64,000 nt of DNA. Origin: a virus. The stretch spans positions 36,456-100,455 of IMG/VR virus record IMGVR_UViG_3300034175_000062; one strand, written 5' to 3'. Both the position numbers and the translations under genes were made by a program. This document shows, one piece after another, positions 18,663 to 46,298 of the stretch (position 1 is the stretch's first letter; every line of letters begins with the position of its first letter). Under the pieces are notes generated by a model that saw only the letters and a list, made by a program, of their open reading frames with translations, made no database searches and was not told the origin of the DNA.

Positions 18663-18930
18663 GTTTAACTTCGTCGGACCAGGAGTCCATGAGGTCGATA
18701 TCCTCCTCTTCATGGGTCCGATGTCCGATGACGATGGTCCGTTCCTACGGATGCCAGACAACTGGTCGTTAGCGCACGTGATGCACCACGCTGGTCTGTT
18801 TCCGAGCGTCGGCCAGGCGAAGAAGAATGGCTGGGACAAGCCGATCGAGCCGGGCTTCTCACATTTCGTCGTAACCAAGCGGAAGATCGCCGTCTGGATA
18901 CTGACTCGTTTCGAGGGTTGCTTTGAATGA
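18652..18930 (+). CDS. Small protein with S4-like RNA-binding motif
   Basis: LAHVMHHAGLFPSVGQAKKNG resembles TyrRS C-terminal S4 helix pair. Confidence 0.6.
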   Translation: MKPEFNFVGPGVHEVDILLFMGPMSDDDGPFLRMPDNWSLAHVMHHAGLFPSVGQAKKNGWDKPIEPGFSHFVVTKRKIAVWILTRFEGCFE

Positions 18931-19595
18931 TTATCGGTGTCTCGCTAGACTTCTGGGGTACGATCGCGAAGCCTAATCCGAAGTACTCTACCGCTCGAAC
19001 TGCGTACTTCGCTGAGCTATTCGGTGTCGAGCCGGAGGTCGCTCATGCCAAATACGTCCAGATCAAGCGTCACGCTGACTACGCTGCCGAACACTTCGGG
19101 ACTGCGTATCATCCGATGGCTCAGATACGATCACTGTTGAACTGCGAGAAACTGACGCGCAAGGTCGATGCATGTGACGTCTATTATGATCTGATGCATC
19201 GCGTTGCTCGCTACAAACCCGTCATCTCGCCATCAATGAAAGCGCTGCTCAAGCGAGCGTCGCCGCTGTTCGTGATGGGTATCACCTCGAATACCAATTT
19301 CATACCCGGTCATGTGCTCGCGTCATTGATACCATCCACGTTTGCTGAACCGACGTGGTCTGATGTCGTCGGCATCTGCAAGCCGTCACCGGAGATATTC
19401 AACCAGACGTACCGTTCCCTCGTCACGAAGAACGGCGCTGCGATCAAGCCGTGGGAGATACTGCATATCGGTGATAACTACAGGTGTGACTACGTTGGGG
19501 CTACGCGTTTCGGCTTTCAAGGCCGTCACGTCAAGAGCGTAGAAGAAACTGAGGCTGTGCTTCAGATGATTATCGACCAGGGAGAGCTTGAATGA
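18927..19595 (+). CDS. HAD-family hydrolase
   Basis: DFWGT, TSN, KPSPEIF, HIGDNYRCD. Confidence 0.9.
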   Translation: MIIGVSLDFWGTIAKPNPKYSTARTAYFAELFGVEPEVAHAKYVQIKRHADYAAEHFGTAYHPMAQIRSLLNCEKLTRKVDACDVYYDLMHRVARYKPVISPSMKALLKRASPLFVMGITSNTNFIPGHVLASLIPSTFAEPTWSDVVGICKPSPEIFNQTYRSLVTKNGAAIKPWEILHIGDNYRCDYVGATRFGFQGRHVKSVEETEAVLQMIIDQGELE

Positions 19596-20461
19596 CGACT
19601 CATATGGCTATTAAGCAGTTTGGCGATCTAACCGACCAGATGAAGCGCGAGTGGGGCAGGGCGTATTCGATGTTGAAATTCGGCGATGACACCGTTGCCA
19701 AGAACTTCGCGTACAAGATGGCTGATGCGTTCTTCGACAACTACACCGATCTGTTCACAGACGACCAGCCTCAGCCGGTGATCATCCCGGCTCCCTGCAG
19801 CTCGAACGTGCCGATCGCGTCTAAGATGCTGGCGGATCACTTCATGCATCGACTCAATGCGATCATGGCTGATCGCATGCTGCCGCCTGTCGAGATGACG
19901 CTGATGCAGCGGCTGAATACGTACTACAATAACTACTGCCATCTAGAAGAGAGCGAACGGGCTCGTCTGTTGGCGCAAGACACGCTCTACATCAATCGCG
20001 ATTTTATCGCCGGCAAGCGGCTGATCTTCGTCGATGACTGTACGATCACTGGCACGCACGAGAAGAACATTATCCGTTTCTTCGATGCTCACGATCTCAA
20101 CAACGAGCTGTACTTCGTCTGTTACGCCAACTATACTGGCGCGGATCCGACTATCGAGGGGCGACTCAATCACCTCTACATCAAGTCGGCGGATGACGTG
20201 CTCCGTCAGTACTGGCGGATGTCGCTGATCGGTGAGCGGTTTATCCTGACCACTCGCGCGGTGCGTCTAATCCTCGAGGCTAACGAGGATGCGTTCCGGA
20301 GGTTCATTCACGAGTTTCCGCAGACGTTCATTAACGAGCTGTTACATGCGGCGATATCGAAAGAGTATCACCTCTACGAAGATTACACTAACAACTTCCT
20401 TTATCTGAAGGCGTGCTGTGCAAAAGAGTTGACATTTCCAAAACAACATGTTATAGTATAG
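19592..20461 (+). CDS. ComF-like phosphoribosyltransferase (PRTase_3 / Ter-associated type)
   Basis: YSMLKFGD N-motif; PRPP loop LIFVDDCTITGTHE. Confidence 0.8.
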   Translation: MTTHMAIKQFGDLTDQMKREWGRAYSMLKFGDDTVAKNFAYKMADAFFDNYTDLFTDDQPQPVIIPAPCSSNVPIASKMLADHFMHRLNAIMADRMLPPVEMTLMQRLNTYYNNYCHLEESERARLLAQDTLYINRDFIAGKRLIFVDDCTITGTHEKNIIRFFDAHDLNNELYFVCYANYTGADPTIEGRLNHLYIKSADDVLRQYWRMSLIGERFILTTRAVRLILEANEDAFRRFIHEFPQTFINELLHAAISKEYHLYEDYTNNFLYLKACCAKELTFPKQHVIV

Positions 20462-40619: not shown

Positions 40620-40752
40620 AGTGTTCTGTTCTCGTATTTTTGTATGGTTTCATATGTTTTGTGTCCACTTTGTGCATAATATATGAAGGGTTAAGTGGGA
40701 GCCAATACTGTACCACTTAACCCCTTATTTATATCATAGTAATGTTGAAATG

Positions 40753-42162
40753 TCAACCAACTTTTACACGAGCTCGAATTTCTTCAAAGTTCGTGCGGTT
40801 GAACATCTCTCCATTACGATAACGAAGCTTAAGCTCAGAAGTCATGATGAACTCGCCAGTCTCATGAGCGATAGCCTGGTGTGCCTCAAGATCTTCGAGA
40901 CGCACAGTGTTATACTCGCCCTTATACTTGACTAGTTCGAGACGTCCGCGCTTAGACTTCTTTCCACTGTCGGTGATTGGGTCCTTGTAGACGTCGACCC
41001 ATTCACCATCGATATTAGCAGCTGAGCACTTCATAGCGAACTTCGAATCATCGCGATTGTTGATCTGAAGTAGTGCACCACCCTGACCGAAAGTGATATT
41101 GTCGGTCGAGAAGCCAGCCAGCTGCGCACTGAAGATAATAGAACGAATGCTCTGGTGATTGATACCATCACCCTGAAGCACTCGGCAGGTATTGAGGACC
41201 TTGTAACCCTTCTCGTTCATAGTAGAACCGAAGTACAGGTCTAGAAGCTGAAGCACCTTAACTACGATAACTGCGGGATCACCTGAGTCAGGACGTACCA
41301 CGAGGGTGCAGCCAGTGTCGAGAATATCCTGCTTCAGTTCAGTACCAAAGAGCTTGATGGCGTTAAAGATGTCGTAGCTATCAGAGACGATAGAAACGAT
41401 CTTGCCAGGAGCTCCATAGGTACGGATCATATTGCGATAAGAGTCCACCTCGCCATCACGAGTCCAACTCGTTACAGTTGAATGCTCCATAGCAGGTACG
41501 CTAAAGGCAGGGACATCGTCAGCATCATAGTACTCCATAGCGTATTCAATAGCCGTAAGAGTGTCGGTTCCCATGAAGACGGCGATGTGTGCCAGGCCAC
41601 CAATTCCAGCAGATTCGAAGCTACTAACACCACGAGCACCAAAGTCATGTAGCTTAAAATCGATAAGAGACTCATCGCCAGTGTCCTTCAGTCCCTTGAG
41701 GATGATCTGCTTACTGTAGTAGCTGTTCGAAGCAACAGTGGTAGGATACCAGATGCCGCGAAGGAGCAAAGTCTCGAGATACGACGGCAACCACCAGCAC
41801 TCTGGATCGGTATTCTTGATCCAGCAAAGGATCTGCTGAGTGCCGATAACAGTACCCTCGTCGAGCGCATGGATCTCAACAGGGAGAATACCGTCGTGCT
41901 TCTCGAGGATATACATCCAACCTTCACGGTTAAATGGTTCGCCATGAGCCAACGCGACCTTCTCAGCTCGGTTGATCATCTTCAGCGTAACACGCTTCAT
42001 GACGTATTCTTGGATCAGCATCTGAGTGCCGAGGAAGACCAGCTTATCATACATACCGCCACGACTCTCGATGTACGAGAATACGTACTCGGTCTTTGGC
42101 GGATACTGATTGTACTGCGAGAGCTTGTAGCTGTCGGTATTAAGGCAAATGTTGTATTCCAC
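40753..42162 (-). CDS. nadV: Nicotinamide phosphoribosyltransferase
   Basis: TDSYK, LHDFGARG, PAMEHS, SDSYD, VVRPDSGD, QGDG, KDPITD.GK.SK.G. Confidence 0.97.
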   Translation of the reverse strand: MEYNICLNTDSYKLSQYNQYPPKTEYVFSYIESRGGMYDKLVFLGTQMLIQEYVMKRVTLKMINRAEKVALAHGEPFNREGWMYILEKHDGILPVEIHALDEGTVIGTQQILCWIKNTDPECWWLPSYLETLLLRGIWYPTTVASNSYYSKQIILKGLKDTGDESLIDFKLHDFGARGVSSFESAGIGGLAHIAVFMGTDTLTAIEYAMEYYDADDVPAFSVPAMEHSTVTSWTRDGEVDSYRNMIRTYGAPGKIVSIVSDSYDIFNAIKLFGTELKQDILDTGCTLVVRPDSGDPAVIVVKVLQLLDLYFGSTMNEKGYKVLNTCRVLQGDGINHQSIRSIIFSAQLAGFSTDNITFGQGGALLQINNRDDSKFAMKCSAANIDGEWVDVYKDPITDSGKKSKRGRLELVKYKGEYNTVRLEDLEAHQAIAHETGEFIMTSELKLRYRNGEMFNRTNFEEIRARVKVG

Positions 42163-42210
42163 GATAAGTTCCTTATTCGTGATTAAAAGGTAGAGCGCCT
42201 ATCGCTTACC
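42160..42210 (-). promoter_or_regulatory. Two-hairpin RNA leader of nadV
   Basis: GGUA-AGCG[AUAGG]CGCU-C-UACC, UUUU, then CACGA-AUAAG[GAA]CUUAU-CGUG enclosing SD and GUG. Confidence 0.7.
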
Positions 42211-43258
42211 ATGCAGTTGGGAGAGGGATCCAGTGCGTGATGATGTCGTAGTGATCATCAAACAGAAGTTCTTTCTTGACTTCGTTGTATGGAACCCACT
42301 TGGCTCGCTTAGCATCATCAGCTCCCTTAACTTTGGGGAACTTGCCGTTGACTCGATGAAGGACGATACGTCCAGCATGAGTGATCGACCTGCCAAGCAG
42401 AGAACGATTCTTATGAGAGAAGGTCTTGATCTCTACGATACTACCACGGATGACCTTTGCAGGAACATCGATCATAGTCTCTTCATCGAGCTCTCGAACG
42501 ATACCATCAACTGGTTCATCGTCCTTTACAGTATCGAAGTATCCACCAGGTAGAGCCCAGAGGTCCTTACCAGGATGCGACTTACGCTGGATCAGTAAGA
42601 TATGACCATCACATGTGACGACCGCATCTACCGTGACTGCAAGCATCGGATATGGGAGGTTTGCATACTGCTTGCGACGGTTCTCTACAACCCGCTTGCC
42701 TTCCATGATGTATTCGAATGCTTCTGTCTTACGGAAGTCATCCATCCACTCAAGGACGGTGCCAGGTACACAACCAACAAGGAAGTTGCGGTTGTAGTTA
42801 CGCTGGAAGTAGAGCTCACGGATCATAGTCGCATCGAGCACTTGAGCCAGCGGAACATTCACGTCATCCCATTGAGGGAACATACGCAGATATTCTGCAG
42901 TCTCAGCGTCTTTGTGATGACCAATAAGCACGATAGCGTCGTTAGCATTAGCATGCTTAGCTACGTTCTGTTGGATACGAGTGATCCAACCATCATAGTC
43001 GTAGAGGGTGTCGATAACGTATTCGACTACGTACTCAGCCCCGGTTCGCTTAGCTAGATCAGCTAGGATAGGCTTGAGCATTAGGGCTCGTTCCGCGGCA
43101 GTCCATGGATTCTTATGGGTGCGAGGCTGGAAGGCGGAGCCGATGTTTACTACGACTGTATCAGCAATCATACCAGCTTCGAAGAGCAGTGCAGTATGAG
43201 CGTCGTGTAGACCTTGAAAACGTCCGATGACTACAGACGTGTCGTATTTCTTATGCAT
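42206..43258 (-). CDS. nadM: Bifunctional NMN adenylyltransferase / Nudix ADP-ribose pyrophosphatase (NadM-Nudix, NatV-like)
   Basis: GRFQGLHDAH, IGS, NPWT..ER, AT.IR; WALPGG..., RELDEET, GADDA. Confidence 0.95.
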   Translation of the reverse strand: MHKKYDTSVVIGRFQGLHDAHTALLFEAGMIADTVVVNIGSAFQPRTHKNPWTAAERALMLKPILADLAKRTGAEYVVEYVIDTLYDYDGWITRIQQNVAKHANANDAIVLIGHHKDAETAEYLRMFPQWDDVNVPLAQVLDATMIRELYFQRNYNRNFLVGCVPGTVLEWMDDFRKTEAFEYIMEGKRVVENRRKQYANLPYPMLAVTVDAVVTCDGHILLIQRKSHPGKDLWALPGGYFDTVKDDEPVDGIVRELDEETMIDVPAKVIRGSIVEIKTFSHKNRSLLGRSITHAGRIVLHRVNGKFPKVKGADDAKRAKWVPYNEVKKELLFDDHYDIITHWIPLPTAW

Positions 43259-43264
43259 TTGAAC

Positions 43265-43311
43265 CGCAAAACTCCTTTGCGTTATAAAAGAGGAACAGTC
43301 TATCTGTCCTC
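43265..43311 (-). promoter_or_regulatory. Two-hairpin RNA leader of nadM-Nudix
   Basis: GAGG-ACAG[AUAGA]CUGU-U-CCUC, UUUU, then CGCAAA[GGAG]UUUUGCG enclosing SD. Confidence 0.7.
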
Positions 43312-43322
43312 GGTAGTATTTA

Positions 43323-43535
43323 TCACCCGTAGTAGACTACGCCCTTATGAGTGATCTTCATCGGGCGGACGGTGGTTTCCTTCACGAGCTTTTCGTGACC
43401 GGACCGTTCGTCAACCTCGAAGGTCTGAAACTTGATGGGTTCAGGTGCAGAACGACCTGCTTCGATCTCATTGGCAGCGAACTTAGTGAACTGCCATTCA
43501 CGATCAAACTGATTGGTGCGAGTACGATTGCTCAC
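43323..43535 (-). CDS. Hypothetical protein
   Basis: GTGA-coupled. Confidence 0.65.
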   Translation of the reverse strand: MSNRTRTNQFDREWQFTKFAANEIEAGRSAPEPIKFQTFEVDERSGHEKLVKETTVRPMKITHKGVVYYG

Positions 43536-43747
43536 AGACCGAGCTCATTGAACTCATCTTGAGTGGTGCAATACCGAATGACACGCTTGATGCTCTTAGC
43601 CAGCTTCTTCTCATCGGGATATCCGAGGTGACCCATCTCCTTAAGACGGGCAGCTTCCACCTTAACATATTCGTAATGTCGGAGTAGGAAGTCGAGAATG
43701 ATCTTGTCCTCAATCTCGATGCTGATTGGTACTTCAACAGTATGCAT
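43532..43747 (-). CDS. Hypothetical protein
   Basis: AAGG RBS. Confidence 0.7.
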   Translation of the reverse strand: MHTVEVPISIEIEDKIILDFLLRHYEYVKVEAARLKEMGHLGYPDEKKLAKSIKRVIRYCTTQDEFNELGL

Positions 43748-43756
43748 TATAAACCT

Positions 43757-44335
43757 TTAACTAAATTTGTCAACTACAATTTTCTTAAACTTTGGAAGTT
43801 CGTAAGTCATGAAGGGCTGGTACTTGCGAACCTTCATAGCGACTTCCTGCCAGACTGGATCGTACTCCATGGCCTTCGACCATTTATTGTAACAACCAGT
43901 AAGATGGACTAAGATGACGAGTGTTTCGATCGAGACTACACCACGAAGGTACAGCTTCAGGAGCGGTGGATGACCACCATTCTCTAGTCTGAAGTTTGTG
44001 TCGAAATCATCGTCAAGTTGTCCCAATTCATTACTAAACGAATAGGTGAGGGACTGGTTTCGCTTGAGCCAGCTGTTGTACGCGACTTCAGCTGCGTCAG
44101 AATTAACGAGCTCTCCCACCCAGACTTGGGCACCGCGCTCAACGATATTGGCAAGTATGAAAGAGCGAGGGTCTTTAAGCTTTGCAAGCTTGTCAAAGTA
44201 GTATCTGTCGTTTCGGCCTTCGAAGGCGCGGGTAGAAGCAGATACTTTACCTCCGTATCGGAAGTAGTCATACGAGTCCTTGGTGAAGTGCTGTTTGAGA
44301 GCTAGATAATAGACGTATAGATCAAACGATTTCAT
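43757..44335 (-). CDS. gp59: Helicase loader gp59
   Basis: YLALK.HFT...YDYF.Y.GK, R.D.Y.F.KL, HP..LK.YL...IS.ET, KY.PF. Confidence 0.93.
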   Translation of the reverse strand: MKSFDLYVYYLALKQHFTKDSYDYFRYGGKVSASTRAFEGRNDRYYFDKLAKLKDPRSFILANIVERGAQVWVGELVNSDAAEVAYNSWLKRNQSLTYSFSNELGQLDDDFDTNFRLENGGHPPLLKLYLRGVVSIETLVILVHLTGCYNKWSKAMEYDPVWQEVAMKVRKYQPFMTYELPKFKKIVVDKFS

Positions 44336-45083: not shown

Positions 45084-45155
45084 TGGAGCGCCTGAAGGGA
45101 TTCGAACCCTTATCTCTATGCTTAGAAGGCAATGGCCCATTCCCTTGGCAGGCGC
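45084..45155 (-). tRNA. tRNA-Arg(UCU), degenerate D-arm
   Basis: Acceptor GCGCCTG/CAGGCGC-TCCA, T-arm AAGGG-TTCGAAT-CCCTT, anticodon loop CTTCTAA. Confidence 0.75.
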
Positions 45156-45644: not shown

Positions 45645-45958
45645 GAAGTGGGCCCGTGCTGTTGCTAGGTGGAACCCGTACCCCAGAAACGATTACGCGG
45701 CTAGCGCATACTCGTTAGCAAGGACATCATTGTCGTTTGCATTTAGTTGTGTAGCCCGGTCGTGGGCCAAGCGATCATCTACGTATAGTCTTCAGAAGCA
45801 ATCGATGCTGCGTCGCCCCCATCAAAGCCCGCCTGCAAGTAATCCAACACGACATCACGTGTAAAACGAAATCTATCCGCATGTGGATCGGGCTATGGTG
45901 GAGGCGCCGGGTGCTGCCCCCGGGTCTTACCGCCTATCATTCTACATCAAGCAATGAT
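45645..45958 (-). ncRNA. ssrA: Permuted two-piece tmRNA (alphaproteobacterial type)
   Basis: Acceptor piece ...GACCCGGGGGCAGCACCCGGCGCCTCCACCA ends 45896; coding piece starts GGGGGCGA at 45820; tag frame 45740-45693 encodes ANDNDVLANEYALAA*. Confidence 0.95.
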
Positions 45959-45989
45959 AATGTATTTATACCCTAAGTTGGTACAAATG

Positions 45990-46298
45990 TCAAGGCTTTT
46001 TTTTATCGAGTAGAGACTTTTGCCTGCTCTCCCACTGCGACTTCTTATGATTGCAGTTACCGCAGAGCAGCTGGAAGTTCTCTTCAGTATCGGTACCACC
46101 CAGGCATCGGGCGACCGTATGATCGAGCGTTGCCTTATCTTTCCAGTTGTCGGTGAACTGAAGGTTGTGGGTGACCTTACCACAGAAGGGATTACGACAG
46201 CGTGGATCTTTGCGCCATTCGGCTAGCCTGAAGACTAGCCGATGGTAATTCTTCATTGAGGACCTACGATGGCCCTCGTTCTCATAGATTGTTGGCAT
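45990..46298 (-). CDS. HNH endonuclease
   Basis: C...CG, ATLDH......GG....N...LC..CN..K. Confidence 0.88.
   Translation of the reverse strand: MPTIYENEGHRRSSMKNYHRLVFRLAEWRKDPRCRNPFCGKVTHNLQFTDNWKDKATLDHTVARCLGGTDTEENFQLLCGNCNHKKSQWESRQKSLLDKKKP

What the first reader, a model, noticed from the sequence alone, without database searches (positions are those of the whole stretch)
42160..43311. Same covarying two-hairpin RNA element in front of both NAD-salvage genes
Seen: nadM leader GAGG-ACAG[AUAGA]CUGU-U-CCUC-UUUU and nadV leader GGUA-AGCG[AUAGG]CGCU-C-UACC-UUUU. Both have 4 bp, a 3' bulged pyrimidine, 4 bp, a G-C-closed AUAGR pentaloop and a U4 linker, with most pairs changed compensatorily. 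Each is followed by a second hairpin enclosing the SD (and the GUG for nadV). It does not resemble NAD-I or NAD-II riboswitches as I recall them. Inference: an undescribed translational operator, probably bound by one of the enzymes in an NAD/NMN/ADP-ribose-dependent way, that would switch salvage on when host defence drains NAD+.
Basis: partly seen in the sequence, partly recalled or inferred. Interest (0 to 1): 0.85.

Follow-up and report, generated by a model that had tools for sequence, protein, structure and literature searches.

The report
Two-hairpin leader RNA of NAD-salvage genes
Both NAD-rebuilding genes of this T4-type phage begin with the same small two-hairpin RNA, an element absent from RNA catalogues that stands almost only before these two genes in many phages and some bacteria and most likely sets how much of these costly counter-defence enzymes is made.

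Summary
On the minus strand, nadM (43258..42206) and nadV (42162..40753) are each preceded by hairpin 1 (8 bp, one 3' bulged pyrimidine, G-C-closed AUAGA or AUAGG pentaloop) and hairpin 2, which holds the Shine-Dalgarno sequence in its loop.

It is not chance. The same architecture precedes nadM and nadV in dozens of diverged phage contigs, in named phages (Synechococcus B23, Roseobacter DSS3P8, Xanthomonas LucasX, Ralstonia RSP15) and in Burkholderiales nadM-nadV operons. Both stems covary strongly (94% paired against 51% shuffled).

A covariance model hit only the nad leaders in six phage records totalling 1.4 Mb, apart from one unknown gene and one weak match. In 63 loci all 97 hits were sense-strand: 50 before nadM, 39 before nadV, 8 before small neighbours.

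The conserved core is a pentaloop, A-N-R-G-A in phages and NNNGA overall, plus the SD hairpin. The bulge and U4 run are not conserved, so these are not terminators. Neither Rfam 15 nor the paper searches describe it. This scan noted the same leader before in at least 34 other genomes.

Most likely it is a translational operator read by a pathway protein (NadM-Nudix or NadV). A riboswitch or a reader-less structural leader remains possible.

The parts
43317..43324 (-). GATAAATA, a 7-of-8 match to the T4-type late promoter box TATAAATA, ending 5 nt before hairpin 1
   Evidence: Sequence. TAAATA ends 2-8 nt before hairpin 1 in 17 of 31 nadM leaders and 0 of 27 nadV leaders. Promoter function is inferred, not shown.
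43290..43311 (-). nadM leader hairpin 1: 8 bp with a bulged U and a G-C-closed AUAGA pentaloop (43303..43299)
   Evidence: Fold. R3 41.5 bits and R2 47.6 bits for the whole leader. Homologous hairpins covary.
43282..43289 (-). Linker UUUUAUAA, G-free
   Evidence: Linkers in the family are G-poor and mostly 5-14 nt, and the U run is not conserved.
43265..43281 (-). nadM leader hairpin 2: CGCAAA[GGAGU]UUUGCG, with SD GGAG (43275..43272) in the loop and the AUG 6 nt downstream (43258)
   Evidence: Fold. It is the best SD-enclosing hairpin among 182 ORF starts of the contig. Six pairs covary.
42206..43258 (-). nadM: bifunctional NMN adenylyltransferase / Nudix ADP-ribose pyrophosphatase, 350 aa
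   Evidence: Pfam PF01467 + PF00293. 473 phage records hold a homologue.
42189..42210 (-). nadV leader hairpin 1: 8 bp with a bulged C and an AUAGG pentaloop (42202..42198). The nadM stop UAA (42208..42206) lies in its 5' arm.
   Evidence: Fold. R2 29.7 bits for the whole leader and R3 12 bits. The nadM stop lies at or within hairpin 1 in 6 of 30 nadV leaders.
42182..42188 (-). Linker UUUUAAU
42160..42181 (-). nadV leader hairpin 2: CACGA-A-UAAGGAACUUA-UCGUG, enclosing SD AAGGA (42174..42170) and pairing the GUG start (42162..42160)
   Evidence: Fold.
40753..42162 (-). nadV: nicotinamide phosphoribosyltransferase, 469 aa, GTG start
   Evidence: Pfam PF18127 + PF04095. 2018 phage records hold a homologue.

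Best explanation
The two leaders are members of a widespread, uncatalogued cis-regulatory RNA that is tied to the nadM-nadV NAD-salvage pair (NARP2 in phages). It acts on translation initiation.

Hairpin 2 holds the Shine-Dalgarno sequence in its loop and the start codon at or in its 3' base. A 30S subunit must therefore melt hairpin 2 to initiate. The G-poor linker can serve as a landing strip for the ribosome.

Hairpin 1 has variable stems and a conserved pentaloop (A-N-R-G-A, NNNGA overall). It is the specific recognition module.

It would hold hairpin 1 and the SD hairpin together and turn down translation of both genes. That would be an autogenous operator, possibly relieved by substrates.

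Shown: the element, its covariation and its specificity for these genes.
For: Recurrence:
- The same architecture precedes nadM in nearly all of 53 diverged viral loci (34-78% NadM identity).
- It also precedes nadV.
- It occurs in the named phages B23, DSS3P8, LucasX and RSP15.
- It occurs in bacterial nadM-nadV operons.

Covariation:
- On alignment A3, 80.5% of cells pair against 48.6% shuffled. The covariation score is 0.817 against 0.206 (0 of 500 shuffles reach it). Slid controls give 0.12-0.19.
- On the model-built alignment A5, 94.1% pair against 51.5% shuffled, and the score is 0.994.

Specificity:
- R2 finds only the nadM and nadV leaders in the window's contig and in four of five further phage genomes (146-364 kb). 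The fifth adds a third hit before an unknown 114-aa gene and one weak match.
- All 97 hits in 351 kb of viral loci are sense-strand: 50 before NadM, 39 before NadV, 8 before small neighbouring ORFs.
- SD-enclosing hairpins are not a habit of this phage. nadM's is the best of 182 ORF starts.

Reader:
- Hosts range from cyanobacteria to alpha-, beta- and gammaproteobacteria. A common reader must therefore be a metabolite, the ribosome, or a protein that travels with the genes.
- In 201 Burkholiales-order (Burkholderiales) genomes the motif sits on nadV leaders in 8 of 9 genomes with both genes, and on nadM leaders in 6 of those 9. It is in 0 of 4 NadV-only and 0 of 14 NadM-only genomes.
- Five NadM-less phages lack it.
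- Loop identity changes in concert in both leaders of a genome while the stems differ. Examples are GYUGA in Variovorax, Casimicrobium and Gemmatales, AGGGA/ACGGA in RSP15, and GUAG-type loops in K64-1. This is expected of a co-evolving protein, not of a fixed ligand pocket.
- Only about 4-6 nucleotides outside the SD are conserved, which is little for an aptamer.

Rationale: NARP2 overproduces NAD+, consumes PRPP, and the KVP40 operon was toxic in E. coli (10.1101/2024.02.11.579819).
Against: - No binding or expression data exist.
- NadM and NadV have no known RNA-binding activity (my own knowledge).
- Their pI is about 6 and does not differ between motif-bearing and motif-less genes.
- Co-occurrence with the gene pair is confounded by shared descent of a mobile operon together with its leader.
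- Some NadM+NadV phages (Margaery, PG216, Astolliot, phiN3, Aes012) keep at most the SD hairpin or nothing. A reader, if any, is therefore dispensable.
- The first instance set was picked by a script that required at least 4 pairs in each stem. This inflates the inner-pair counts.
- The window's nadV copy is degenerate (AUAGG loop, GGAA instead of GGAG, 12 bits with the independent model).
Confidence: 0.42

Rival explanations
1. It is a new small riboswitch. A metabolite of the pathway (NAD+, NMN, ADP-ribose, nicotinamide or PRPP) binds the hairpin-1 loop, perhaps together with the linker or the SD loop, and changes how easily hairpin 2 opens.
For: - A metabolite is the simplest reader common to phages of unrelated hosts and to bacteria.
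- The element is restricted to one pathway.
- The guanidine-II riboswitch shows that two small hairpins with conserved loops can form an aptamer (my own knowledge).
- Some bacterial leaders carry an extra hairpin in the linker. This suggests that the spatial relation of the two hairpins matters.
Against: - Very few nucleotides outside the SD are conserved.
- Mutual information gave no covariation between loop 1 and any other column that would indicate a pseudoknot or kissing contact.
- Loop identity differs between lineages and shifts in concert in both leaders of a genome. That is unusual for a ligand pocket.
- Hairpin 1 is missing in several phages that keep the SD hairpin.
- The element is absent from the nadA-nadM operons of the same bacterial order.
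Confidence: 0.2
2. It is a reader-less structural leader: a portable translation-initiation cassette that moved with the nadM-nadV module. Hairpin 1 insulates or stabilises the mRNA, and in T4-type phages may sit at the 5' end of a late transcript. The G-poor linker is a ribosome standby site. Hairpin 2 presents the SD and sets a fixed, moderate translation rate.
For: - TAAATA (late-promoter-like) ends 2-8 nt before hairpin 1 in 17 of 31 nadM leaders.
- Sigma-70-like promoters lie just upstream in many contigs.
- In L040 the leader is triplicated almost identically in front of unrelated genes, as a mobile cassette would be.
- SD hairpins persist where hairpin 1 is lost.
Against: - The stems have turned over completely while the pentaloop stays A-N-R-G-A. 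A is 100%, G 98% and A 97% at loop positions 1, 4 and 5. This implies selection on loop identity, which insulation or stability does not require.
- nadV leaders are internal to the operon, so they are not 5'-end protectors.
- A general cassette should appear before other genes, yet whole-genome scans find it essentially only at nad genes.
Confidence: 0.2
3. It is a host global regulator site of the CsrA/RsmA type. A dimer would bind an A(N)GGA hairpin loop and the GGA of the SD hairpin and so block the ribosome.
For: - The architecture matches CsrA dual sites (my own knowledge): a pentaloop A-N-G-G-A in some leaders, plus an SD in a second hairpin about 25 nt away.
- AUGGA, AGGGA, ACGGA and AAGGA loops occur.
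Against: - Only 6 of 84 distinct leaders have GGA in loop 1. 67 have AGA (AUAGA, ACAGA, AAAGA, AGAGA), which lacks the first G that CsrA needs (my own knowledge).
- Carriers include phages of Synechococcus and Ruegeria, hosts that lack CsrA as far as I know.
- A global regulator would not be confined to two genes.
Confidence: 0.06
4. They are ordinary intrinsic terminators or 3' stabiliser hairpins of the preceding genes that resemble each other by chance.
For: - In the window both hairpins are followed by UUUU.
- The consensus scan lists the nadM one as terminator-like.
- The nadV one sits at the nadM stop codon.
Against: - The U run is lost even in the closest relative (UUCUAAUC in L001) and is absent in most homologues.
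- Many nadM leaders lie directly after a promoter, not after a gene.
- The loop is conserved and hairpin 2 is coupled to it.
- The phage's clear terminator looks different: 10 bp and a T7 run after gp32.
Confidence: 0.03

Closest known systems
Autogenous translational operators read by enzymes (E. coli thrS operator and ThrRS; phage T4 gene 43 and gene 32 operators)
   Same: Small hairpins just 5' of, or overlapping, the SD. The loop is conserved and the stems vary. The gene's own product is proposed to compete with the 30S subunit. In thrS a dimer reads two stem-loops.
   Different: Binding is not shown here. NadM and NadV have no known RNA substrate to mimic. One element serves two or three different genes. 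The comparison rests on my own knowledge.
PyrR binding loop of pyr operon leaders (Rfam RF00515)
   Same: As I recall it, a hairpin with a purine-rich AGAGA-like terminal loop, read by a protein of phosphoribosyltransferase descent in a nucleotide-dependent way. Earlier notes of this scan supplied this lead.
   Different: No cmscan match to RF00515 at E up to 10 on four leaders scanned in short stretches. PyrR acts mainly by transcription attenuation. NadV is a type II, not a type I, phosphoribosyltransferase.
Guanidine-II riboswitch (mini-ykkC)
   Same: Two short hairpins with conserved loops and freely covarying stems, a variable linker, the second hairpin at the ribosome-binding site, and translational control.
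   Different: There both loops are ACGR and kiss. Here the loops differ (ANRGA and GGAGU), no loop-loop complementarity was found, and loop 1 varies between lineages.
NAD+-I (nadA motif) and NAD+-II (pnuC motif) riboswitches
   Same: cis-regulatory leaders of NAD metabolism genes.
   Different: Different architecture, and no Rfam match. As I recall, those families are known upstream of bacterial nadA or pnuC, not of nadV or nadM.
CsrA/RsmA dual binding sites
   Same: An A-N-R-G-A-like pentaloop, plus an SD presented in a second hairpin at a suitable spacing.
   Different: GGA is replaced by AGA in about 80% of loops. The element is confined to one pathway and occurs in phages of hosts that, as far as I know, lack CsrA.

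Membership tests
Two-hairpin nadM/nadV leader (uncatalogued; defined here by models R2 and R3) | Hairpin 1 of 5-9 bp with a pentaloop A-N-R-G-A, usually closed by G-C | tested here: met
   The nadM leader has AUAGA closed by G-C. The nadV leader has AUAGG (position 5 is G, seen in 2 of 84 distinct leaders).
Two-hairpin nadM/nadV leader (uncatalogued; defined here by models R2 and R3) | Hairpin 2 with the SD in its loop, 5-14 nt after hairpin 1, and the start codon at or just after its 3' arm | tested here: met
   For nadM the loop is GGAGU and the AUG is 6 nt after the stem. For nadV the GUG is paired in the stem.
Two-hairpin nadM/nadV leader (uncatalogued; defined here by models R2 and R3) | Significant score with a model built without the window's own sequences | tested here: inconclusive
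   R3 gives the nadM leader 41.5 bits, E 2.5e-6 (met). It gives the nadV leader 12 bits, E 4: rank 2 in the window but not significant alone.
Two-hairpin nadM/nadV leader (uncatalogued; defined here by models R2 and R3) | Position directly 5' of nadM or nadV on the sense strand | tested here: met
NAD+-I riboswitch (nadA motif) and NAD+-II riboswitch (pnuC motif), Rfam | Match to the family covariance model | tested here: not met
   cmscan of Rfam 15 at E up to 10, on a 7-kb stretch and on 91-nt stretches of both leaders, gave no NAD riboswitch family. Two other leaders scanned in short stretches and a 1.5-kb bacterial nadM stretch gave none either.
Intrinsic (Rho-independent) terminator | GC-rich hairpin followed directly by a U tract, conserved at the 3' end of the upstream gene | tested here: not met
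   The window has only U4. The tract is absent in most homologues, and many leaders follow a promoter rather than a gene.
CsrA/RsmA binding site pair | GGA in the loop of both hairpins | tested here: not met
   Hairpin 2 has it. Hairpin 1 has GGA in 6 of 84 distinct leaders and AGA in 67. In the window the two loops are AUAGA and AUAGG.
PyrR binding site (RF00515) | Match to the family covariance model | tested here: not met
   No match at E up to 10, including on an AGAGA-loop leader.
Guanidine-II riboswitch (mini-ykkC) | ACGR tetraloops on both hairpins | tested here: not met
   The loops are ANRGA and GGAGU, and there is no Rfam match.
NARP2 / NadV + NadM-Nudix salvage pair (the genes served) | Nampt-type phosphoribosyltransferase plus NMN adenylyltransferase encoded together in a phage | tested here: met
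   Pfam domains. The pathway is as defined in 10.1101/2024.02.11.579819. Enzyme activity was not tested.

The most novel reading that the evidence does not exclude
The leader is the RNA half of a switch that senses the state of the NAD pool. It would do so either directly, as a third and very small class of NAD-pathway riboswitch, or through an enzyme whose RNA binding is displaced by its substrates (ADP-ribose, nicotinamide, NMN). The phage, and the bacteria that carry the operon, would then translate the costly, PRPP-consuming salvage enzymes only when NAD+ has been cleaved, for instance by Thoeris, DSR or SIR2-type defence.
Probability: 0.25. Interest if true: 0.9.

Novelty: new member of a known kind. 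Interest (0 to 1): 0.72.

Why it matters
NadV plus NadM-Nudix is NARP2, one of the phage pathways that rebuild NAD+ after NAD-depleting bacterial immunity (10.1101/2024.02.11.579819). That work reports that NARP2 overproduces NAD+, drains PRPP, and was toxic when cloned. It says nothing about how expression is controlled.

A dedicated, strongly conserved leader RNA on both genes, shared by cyanophages, roseophages, jumbo phages, T4-type phages and some bacteria, would be the first known regulatory layer of this counter-defence. It is small (about 60 nt) and easy to test. Whether it proves to be a riboswitch or an enzyme-read operator, it would add a new family to RNA catalogues and give a handle on when phages turn NAD rebuilding on.

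Tried and rejected
- **Model R1.** I gave it a mistyped structure, with hairpin 2 shifted by 3 columns. It was not used.
- **Rfam.** No family matched any leader.
- **Paper searches.** Searches for a described nadV/nadM motif, a third NAD riboswitch class or a phage NAD riboswitch found nothing. A search for the PyrR loop consensus found no usable paper.
- **Near or distant DNA relatives among deposited phages.** None covers the leaders.
- **Pseudoknot or kissing contact.** Mutual information between loop-1 positions and all other columns showed nothing beyond the closing pair. I also found no consistent complementarity of the loop to the linker, the SD loop or the first codons on reading the sequences.
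The small ORFs that carry the leader (73-238 aa) are mostly unrelated to each other and have no known function. The window's PRTase_3 gene (19592..20461) was not found in five other motif-bearing phage genomes with this query.
- **Bulk charge of NadM and NadV.** It is the same with and without the motif, which gives no hint of an RNA-binding surface.
- **Sequencing runs.** No RNA holder is listed, so 5' ends and expression could not be examined, and read laying was not used.
- **Earlier notes of this scan, searched by sequence.** Nothing came up. One look-up failed on its word limit.
- **Complex or structure prediction.** None was run, because the tools fold proteins only and could not test RNA binding.
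Full report
**What is in the window**

All genes of this stretch lie on the minus strand.
- A 70-aa ORF lies at 43535..43323.
- nadM lies at 43258..42206. It carries CTP_transf_like and NUDIX domains, so it is the bifunctional NMN adenylyltransferase / ADP-ribose pyrophosphatase.
- nadV lies at 42162..40753, with a GTG start and NAMPT_N plus NAPRTase domains.
- A gp32-like gene follows.

The contig is a 100,455-nt virus record, estimated 58% complete, of a T4-type phage. A biocrust metagenome run holds the stretch in full and may be its source.

- The nadM leader has hairpin 1 at 43311..43290, GAGGACAG[AUAGA]CUGUUCCUC. UUUUAUAA follows. Hairpin 2 is at 43281..43265, CGCAAA[GGAGU]UUUGCG, and the AUG is at 43258.
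- The nadV leader has hairpin 1 at 42210..42189, GGUAAGCG[AUAGG]CGCUCUACC, with the nadM stop UAA in its 5' arm. UUUUAAU follows. Hairpin 2 is at 42181..42160 and encloses AAGGA and pairs the GUG.

RNAfold gives these hairpins as both the minimum-energy and the centroid structures.

**Is it more than chance?**

Within the contig these are the only two ATAGR-loop hairpins with 8 pairs. The decisive evidence is comparative.

NadM homologues fetched from viral contigs (34-78% identity) almost all carry the same leader:
- a hairpin whose stem sequence differs from contig to contig;
- a loop that reads AUAGA, ACAGA, AGAGA or AAAGA, closed by G-C;
- a G-poor linker, mostly 5-14 nt;
- a second hairpin with GGAG in its loop;
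- the AUG, 0-6 nt downstream or paired in the stem.

The same is true upstream of nadV in the same contigs. It is also true in named phages: Synechococcus phage B23, Roseobacter phage DSS3P8 and Xanthomonas phage LucasX carry it. Ralstonia phage RSP15 has AGGGA and ACGGA loops.

On an anchored alignment of 65 leaders, every one of the 17 tested pairs shows changes on both sides. Of all cells, 80.5% pair against 48.6% after shuffling. The covariation score is 0.817 against 0.206, reached by 0 of 500 shuffles, and 0.12-0.19 when partners are slid. RNAalifold finds both helices on its own.

There is a caveat. My script picked these instances by requiring at least 4 pairs in each stem. The fifth and sixth pairs, which it did not require, are still about 90% paired.

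**Specificity**

Covariance model R2 was built from that alignment. In the window's contig and in four of five further phage records it hit exactly two places each, the nadM and nadV leaders: B23 (243 kb), DSS3P8 (146 kb) and contigs of 174 and 365 kb. In the fifth, a 364-kb contig, it also hit the leader of an unknown 114-aa gene and gave one weak match.

Over 63 viral loci (351 kb, both strands) all 97 hits at E up to 0.05 were on the sense strand and directly before a start codon. Fifty preceded NadM, 39 preceded NadV and 8 preceded small neighbouring ORFs of unknown function. The alignment made from these hits pairs in 94.1% of cells against 51.5% shuffled.

Model R3 was built without the window's rows or its close relative's nadV-leader row. 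With filters off it ranks the nadM leader first in the window (41.5 bits, E 2.5e-6). It ranks the nadV leader second, but only at 12 bits. The window's nadV copy is thus a degenerate member, with an AUAGG loop, GGAA in place of GGAG and an interrupted hairpin 2.

SD-enclosing hairpins are not a general habit of this phage. nadM has the best one among 182 candidate ORF starts.

**What is conserved and what is not**

In loop 1, position 1 is A in 100% of sequences. Position 2 is any base. Position 3 is a purine (A in 88%). Position 4 is G in 98% and position 5 is A in 97%. The closing pair is G-C in 77% and C-G in 15%.

Among 84 distinct model hits the loops are AUAGA 47, ACAGA 10, AAAGA 6, AGAGA 4, AUGGA 3, AGUGA 3, AAUAGA 3 and AUAGG 2. 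The linker has almost no G and no strongly conserved base.

Even the closest relative has UUCUAAUC after the nadV hairpin, and most leaders have no U run. That excludes the terminator reading as a general one.

In 17 of 31 nadM leaders, and in 0 of 27 nadV leaders, TAAATA ends 2-8 nt before hairpin 1. The window has GATAAATA at 43324..43317. In T4-type phages this looks like the late promoter box, so late transcripts may begin at the foot of hairpin 1. This is inference. In 6 of 30 nadV leaders, as in the window, the nadM stop codon lies at or within hairpin 1. Terminating ribosomes would then open it.

**Beyond phages**

True bacterial genomes carry the element too. I sampled 201 genomes of the order of Variovorax. 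Of these, 23 encode NadM and 13 encode NadV.
- Where both are present, as a nadM-nadV operon, 6 of 9 nadM leaders and 8 of 9 nadV leaders have the two hairpins. Their loops are ACAGA, AUAGA, AGAGA, AAAGA, GGGGA, GUUGA or GCUGA.
- None of the 4 NadV-only genomes has it.
- None of the 14 NadM-only genomes has it. Several of those leaders end with the same upstream-gene tail, and in the one checked nadM follows nadA, the de novo pathway gene.
- Five phages that have NadV with Prs but no NadM lack it as well: a Felixounavirus, a Kayvirus, Mycobacterium phage Whirlwind, Pseudomonas phage phiMK and Vibrio phage ICP1.

So in my samples the element tracks the nadM-nadV pair, not either gene alone.

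Some phages with both genes (Margaery, PG216, Astolliot) keep only the SD hairpin. K64-1 and DLP_6 have other loops on hairpin 1.

**How it most likely works**

The SD sits in the loop of hairpin 2 and the start codon at or in its base. This says that the element acts on translation initiation, because the 30S subunit must open hairpin 2. The G-poor linker could be a standby site.

The open question is who reads hairpin 1. The carriers infect cyanobacteria, alpha-, beta- and gammaproteobacteria, and the element is also chromosomal. Only NadM-Nudix and NadV were seen in every carrier I examined. A PRTase_3 gene of this phage was not found in five other carriers. The extra leader-bearing ORFs are mostly unrelated to each other.

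Three observations favour a protein over a ligand pocket.
- Only four to six bases outside the SD are conserved.
- No covariation links the loop to another region.
- Loop identity shifts in concert in both leaders of a genome while their stems differ. GYUGA occurs in the Variovorax, Casimicrobium and Gemmatales operons, AGGGA/ACGGA in RSP15, and GUAG-type loops in K64-1.

I therefore rank the readings as follows:
- autogenous operator read by NadM-Nudix or NadV: about 0.4;
- small riboswitch: about 0.2;
- reader-less structural leader: about 0.2;
- host CsrA-type site: about 0.06, because loop 1 has AGA, not GGA, in about 80% of cases;
- plain terminators: about 0.03.

That the element is a real, selected cis-acting RNA I hold at about 0.9. 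Evidence against the favoured reading: neither enzyme is known to bind RNA, and their pI (about 6) is the same with and without the motif.

**Known relatives and novelty**

No Rfam 15 family matches any leader tested. That includes the NAD+-I and NAD+-II riboswitches, the PyrR site and mini-ykkC. Full-text searches found no description of the element. The NARP2 paper mentions neither a UTR nor a riboswitch. It does report that NARP2 overproduces NAD+, consumes PRPP and was toxic in E. coli, which gives a reason for tight control.

In function the element is closest to enzyme-read translational operators (thrS; T4 genes 43 and 32). In shape it is closest to guanidine-II and to CsrA dual sites.

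Earlier notes of this scan describe the same leader in at least 34 other genomes and reach similar readings. I repeated their main claims independently. I differ on one point: my bacterial sample ties the element to the gene pair rather than to NadM-Nudix alone.

No RNA-seq data were available for this phage.

Noticed in passing
window 45647..45997 (-), and tRNA at 45087..45155 (-): A phage-encoded permuted (two-piece, alphaproteobacterial-type) tmRNA: RF01849 at 101 bits and RF04321 at 81 bits. A tRNA lies close by (RF00005, 32 bits). This hints at an alphaproteobacterial host.
   Followed up: partly
window 40620..40752 (-): The gp32 leader carries TTGACA-17-TATGAT overlapping TATAAATA (an early plus a late promoter box). 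A long hairpin follows (GGGGUUAAGUGG...CCCACUUAACCC), then an A-rich unstructured stretch before the AUG. It may be a gp32-type autoregulatory operator.
   Followed up: no
window 43773..43746 (-): A perfect 12-of-12 sigma-70 consensus promoter (TTGACA-16-TATAAT) lies upstream of the small ORFs that precede nadM. It probably drives early transcription of the nad cluster.
   Followed up: no
window 18927..20461 (+): A HAD hydrolase (PF00702) is translationally coupled to a ComF-like PRTase_3 (PF15610). I tested the PRTase as a possible reader of the leader and did not find it in five other motif-bearing phage genomes.
   Followed up: partly
L012:4036-4566 (Synechococcus phage B23 gp47): The gene between nadM and nadV in B23 looks, on reading its sequence, like a NADAR/YbiA (DUF1768) protein of ADP-ribose metabolism. 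It has no leader of its own.
   Followed up: no
L040:1309-2505: Three near-identical copies of the leader stand in tandem before a 99-aa ORF, a 238-aa protein made of YYVNG..HR.DGPA repeats, and nadM. The leader was evidently duplicated as a cassette.
   Followed up: partly
L099 and L100 (genome contigs): Contigs of 201 kb and 104 kb, filed in a Cellvibrionaceae MAG and a Nitrosarchaeum MAG, carry high-scoring phage-type leaders (47-56 bits) before nad genes. They may be phage contigs binned with cellular genomes.
   Followed up: no
L127, L130, L156, L157 (Burkholderiales): Some bacterial leaders carry an extra small hairpin inserted in the linker between hairpin 1 and the SD hairpin, giving a three-hairpin variant.
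   Followed up: no
L133:423-1487: In one Burkholderiales genome without nadV, nadM lies directly after nadA (quinolinate synthase, PF02445) and has no leader. Several other NadV-less genomes show the same upstream-gene tail. NadM thus has a de novo-pathway context distinct from the salvage operon.
   Followed up: partly
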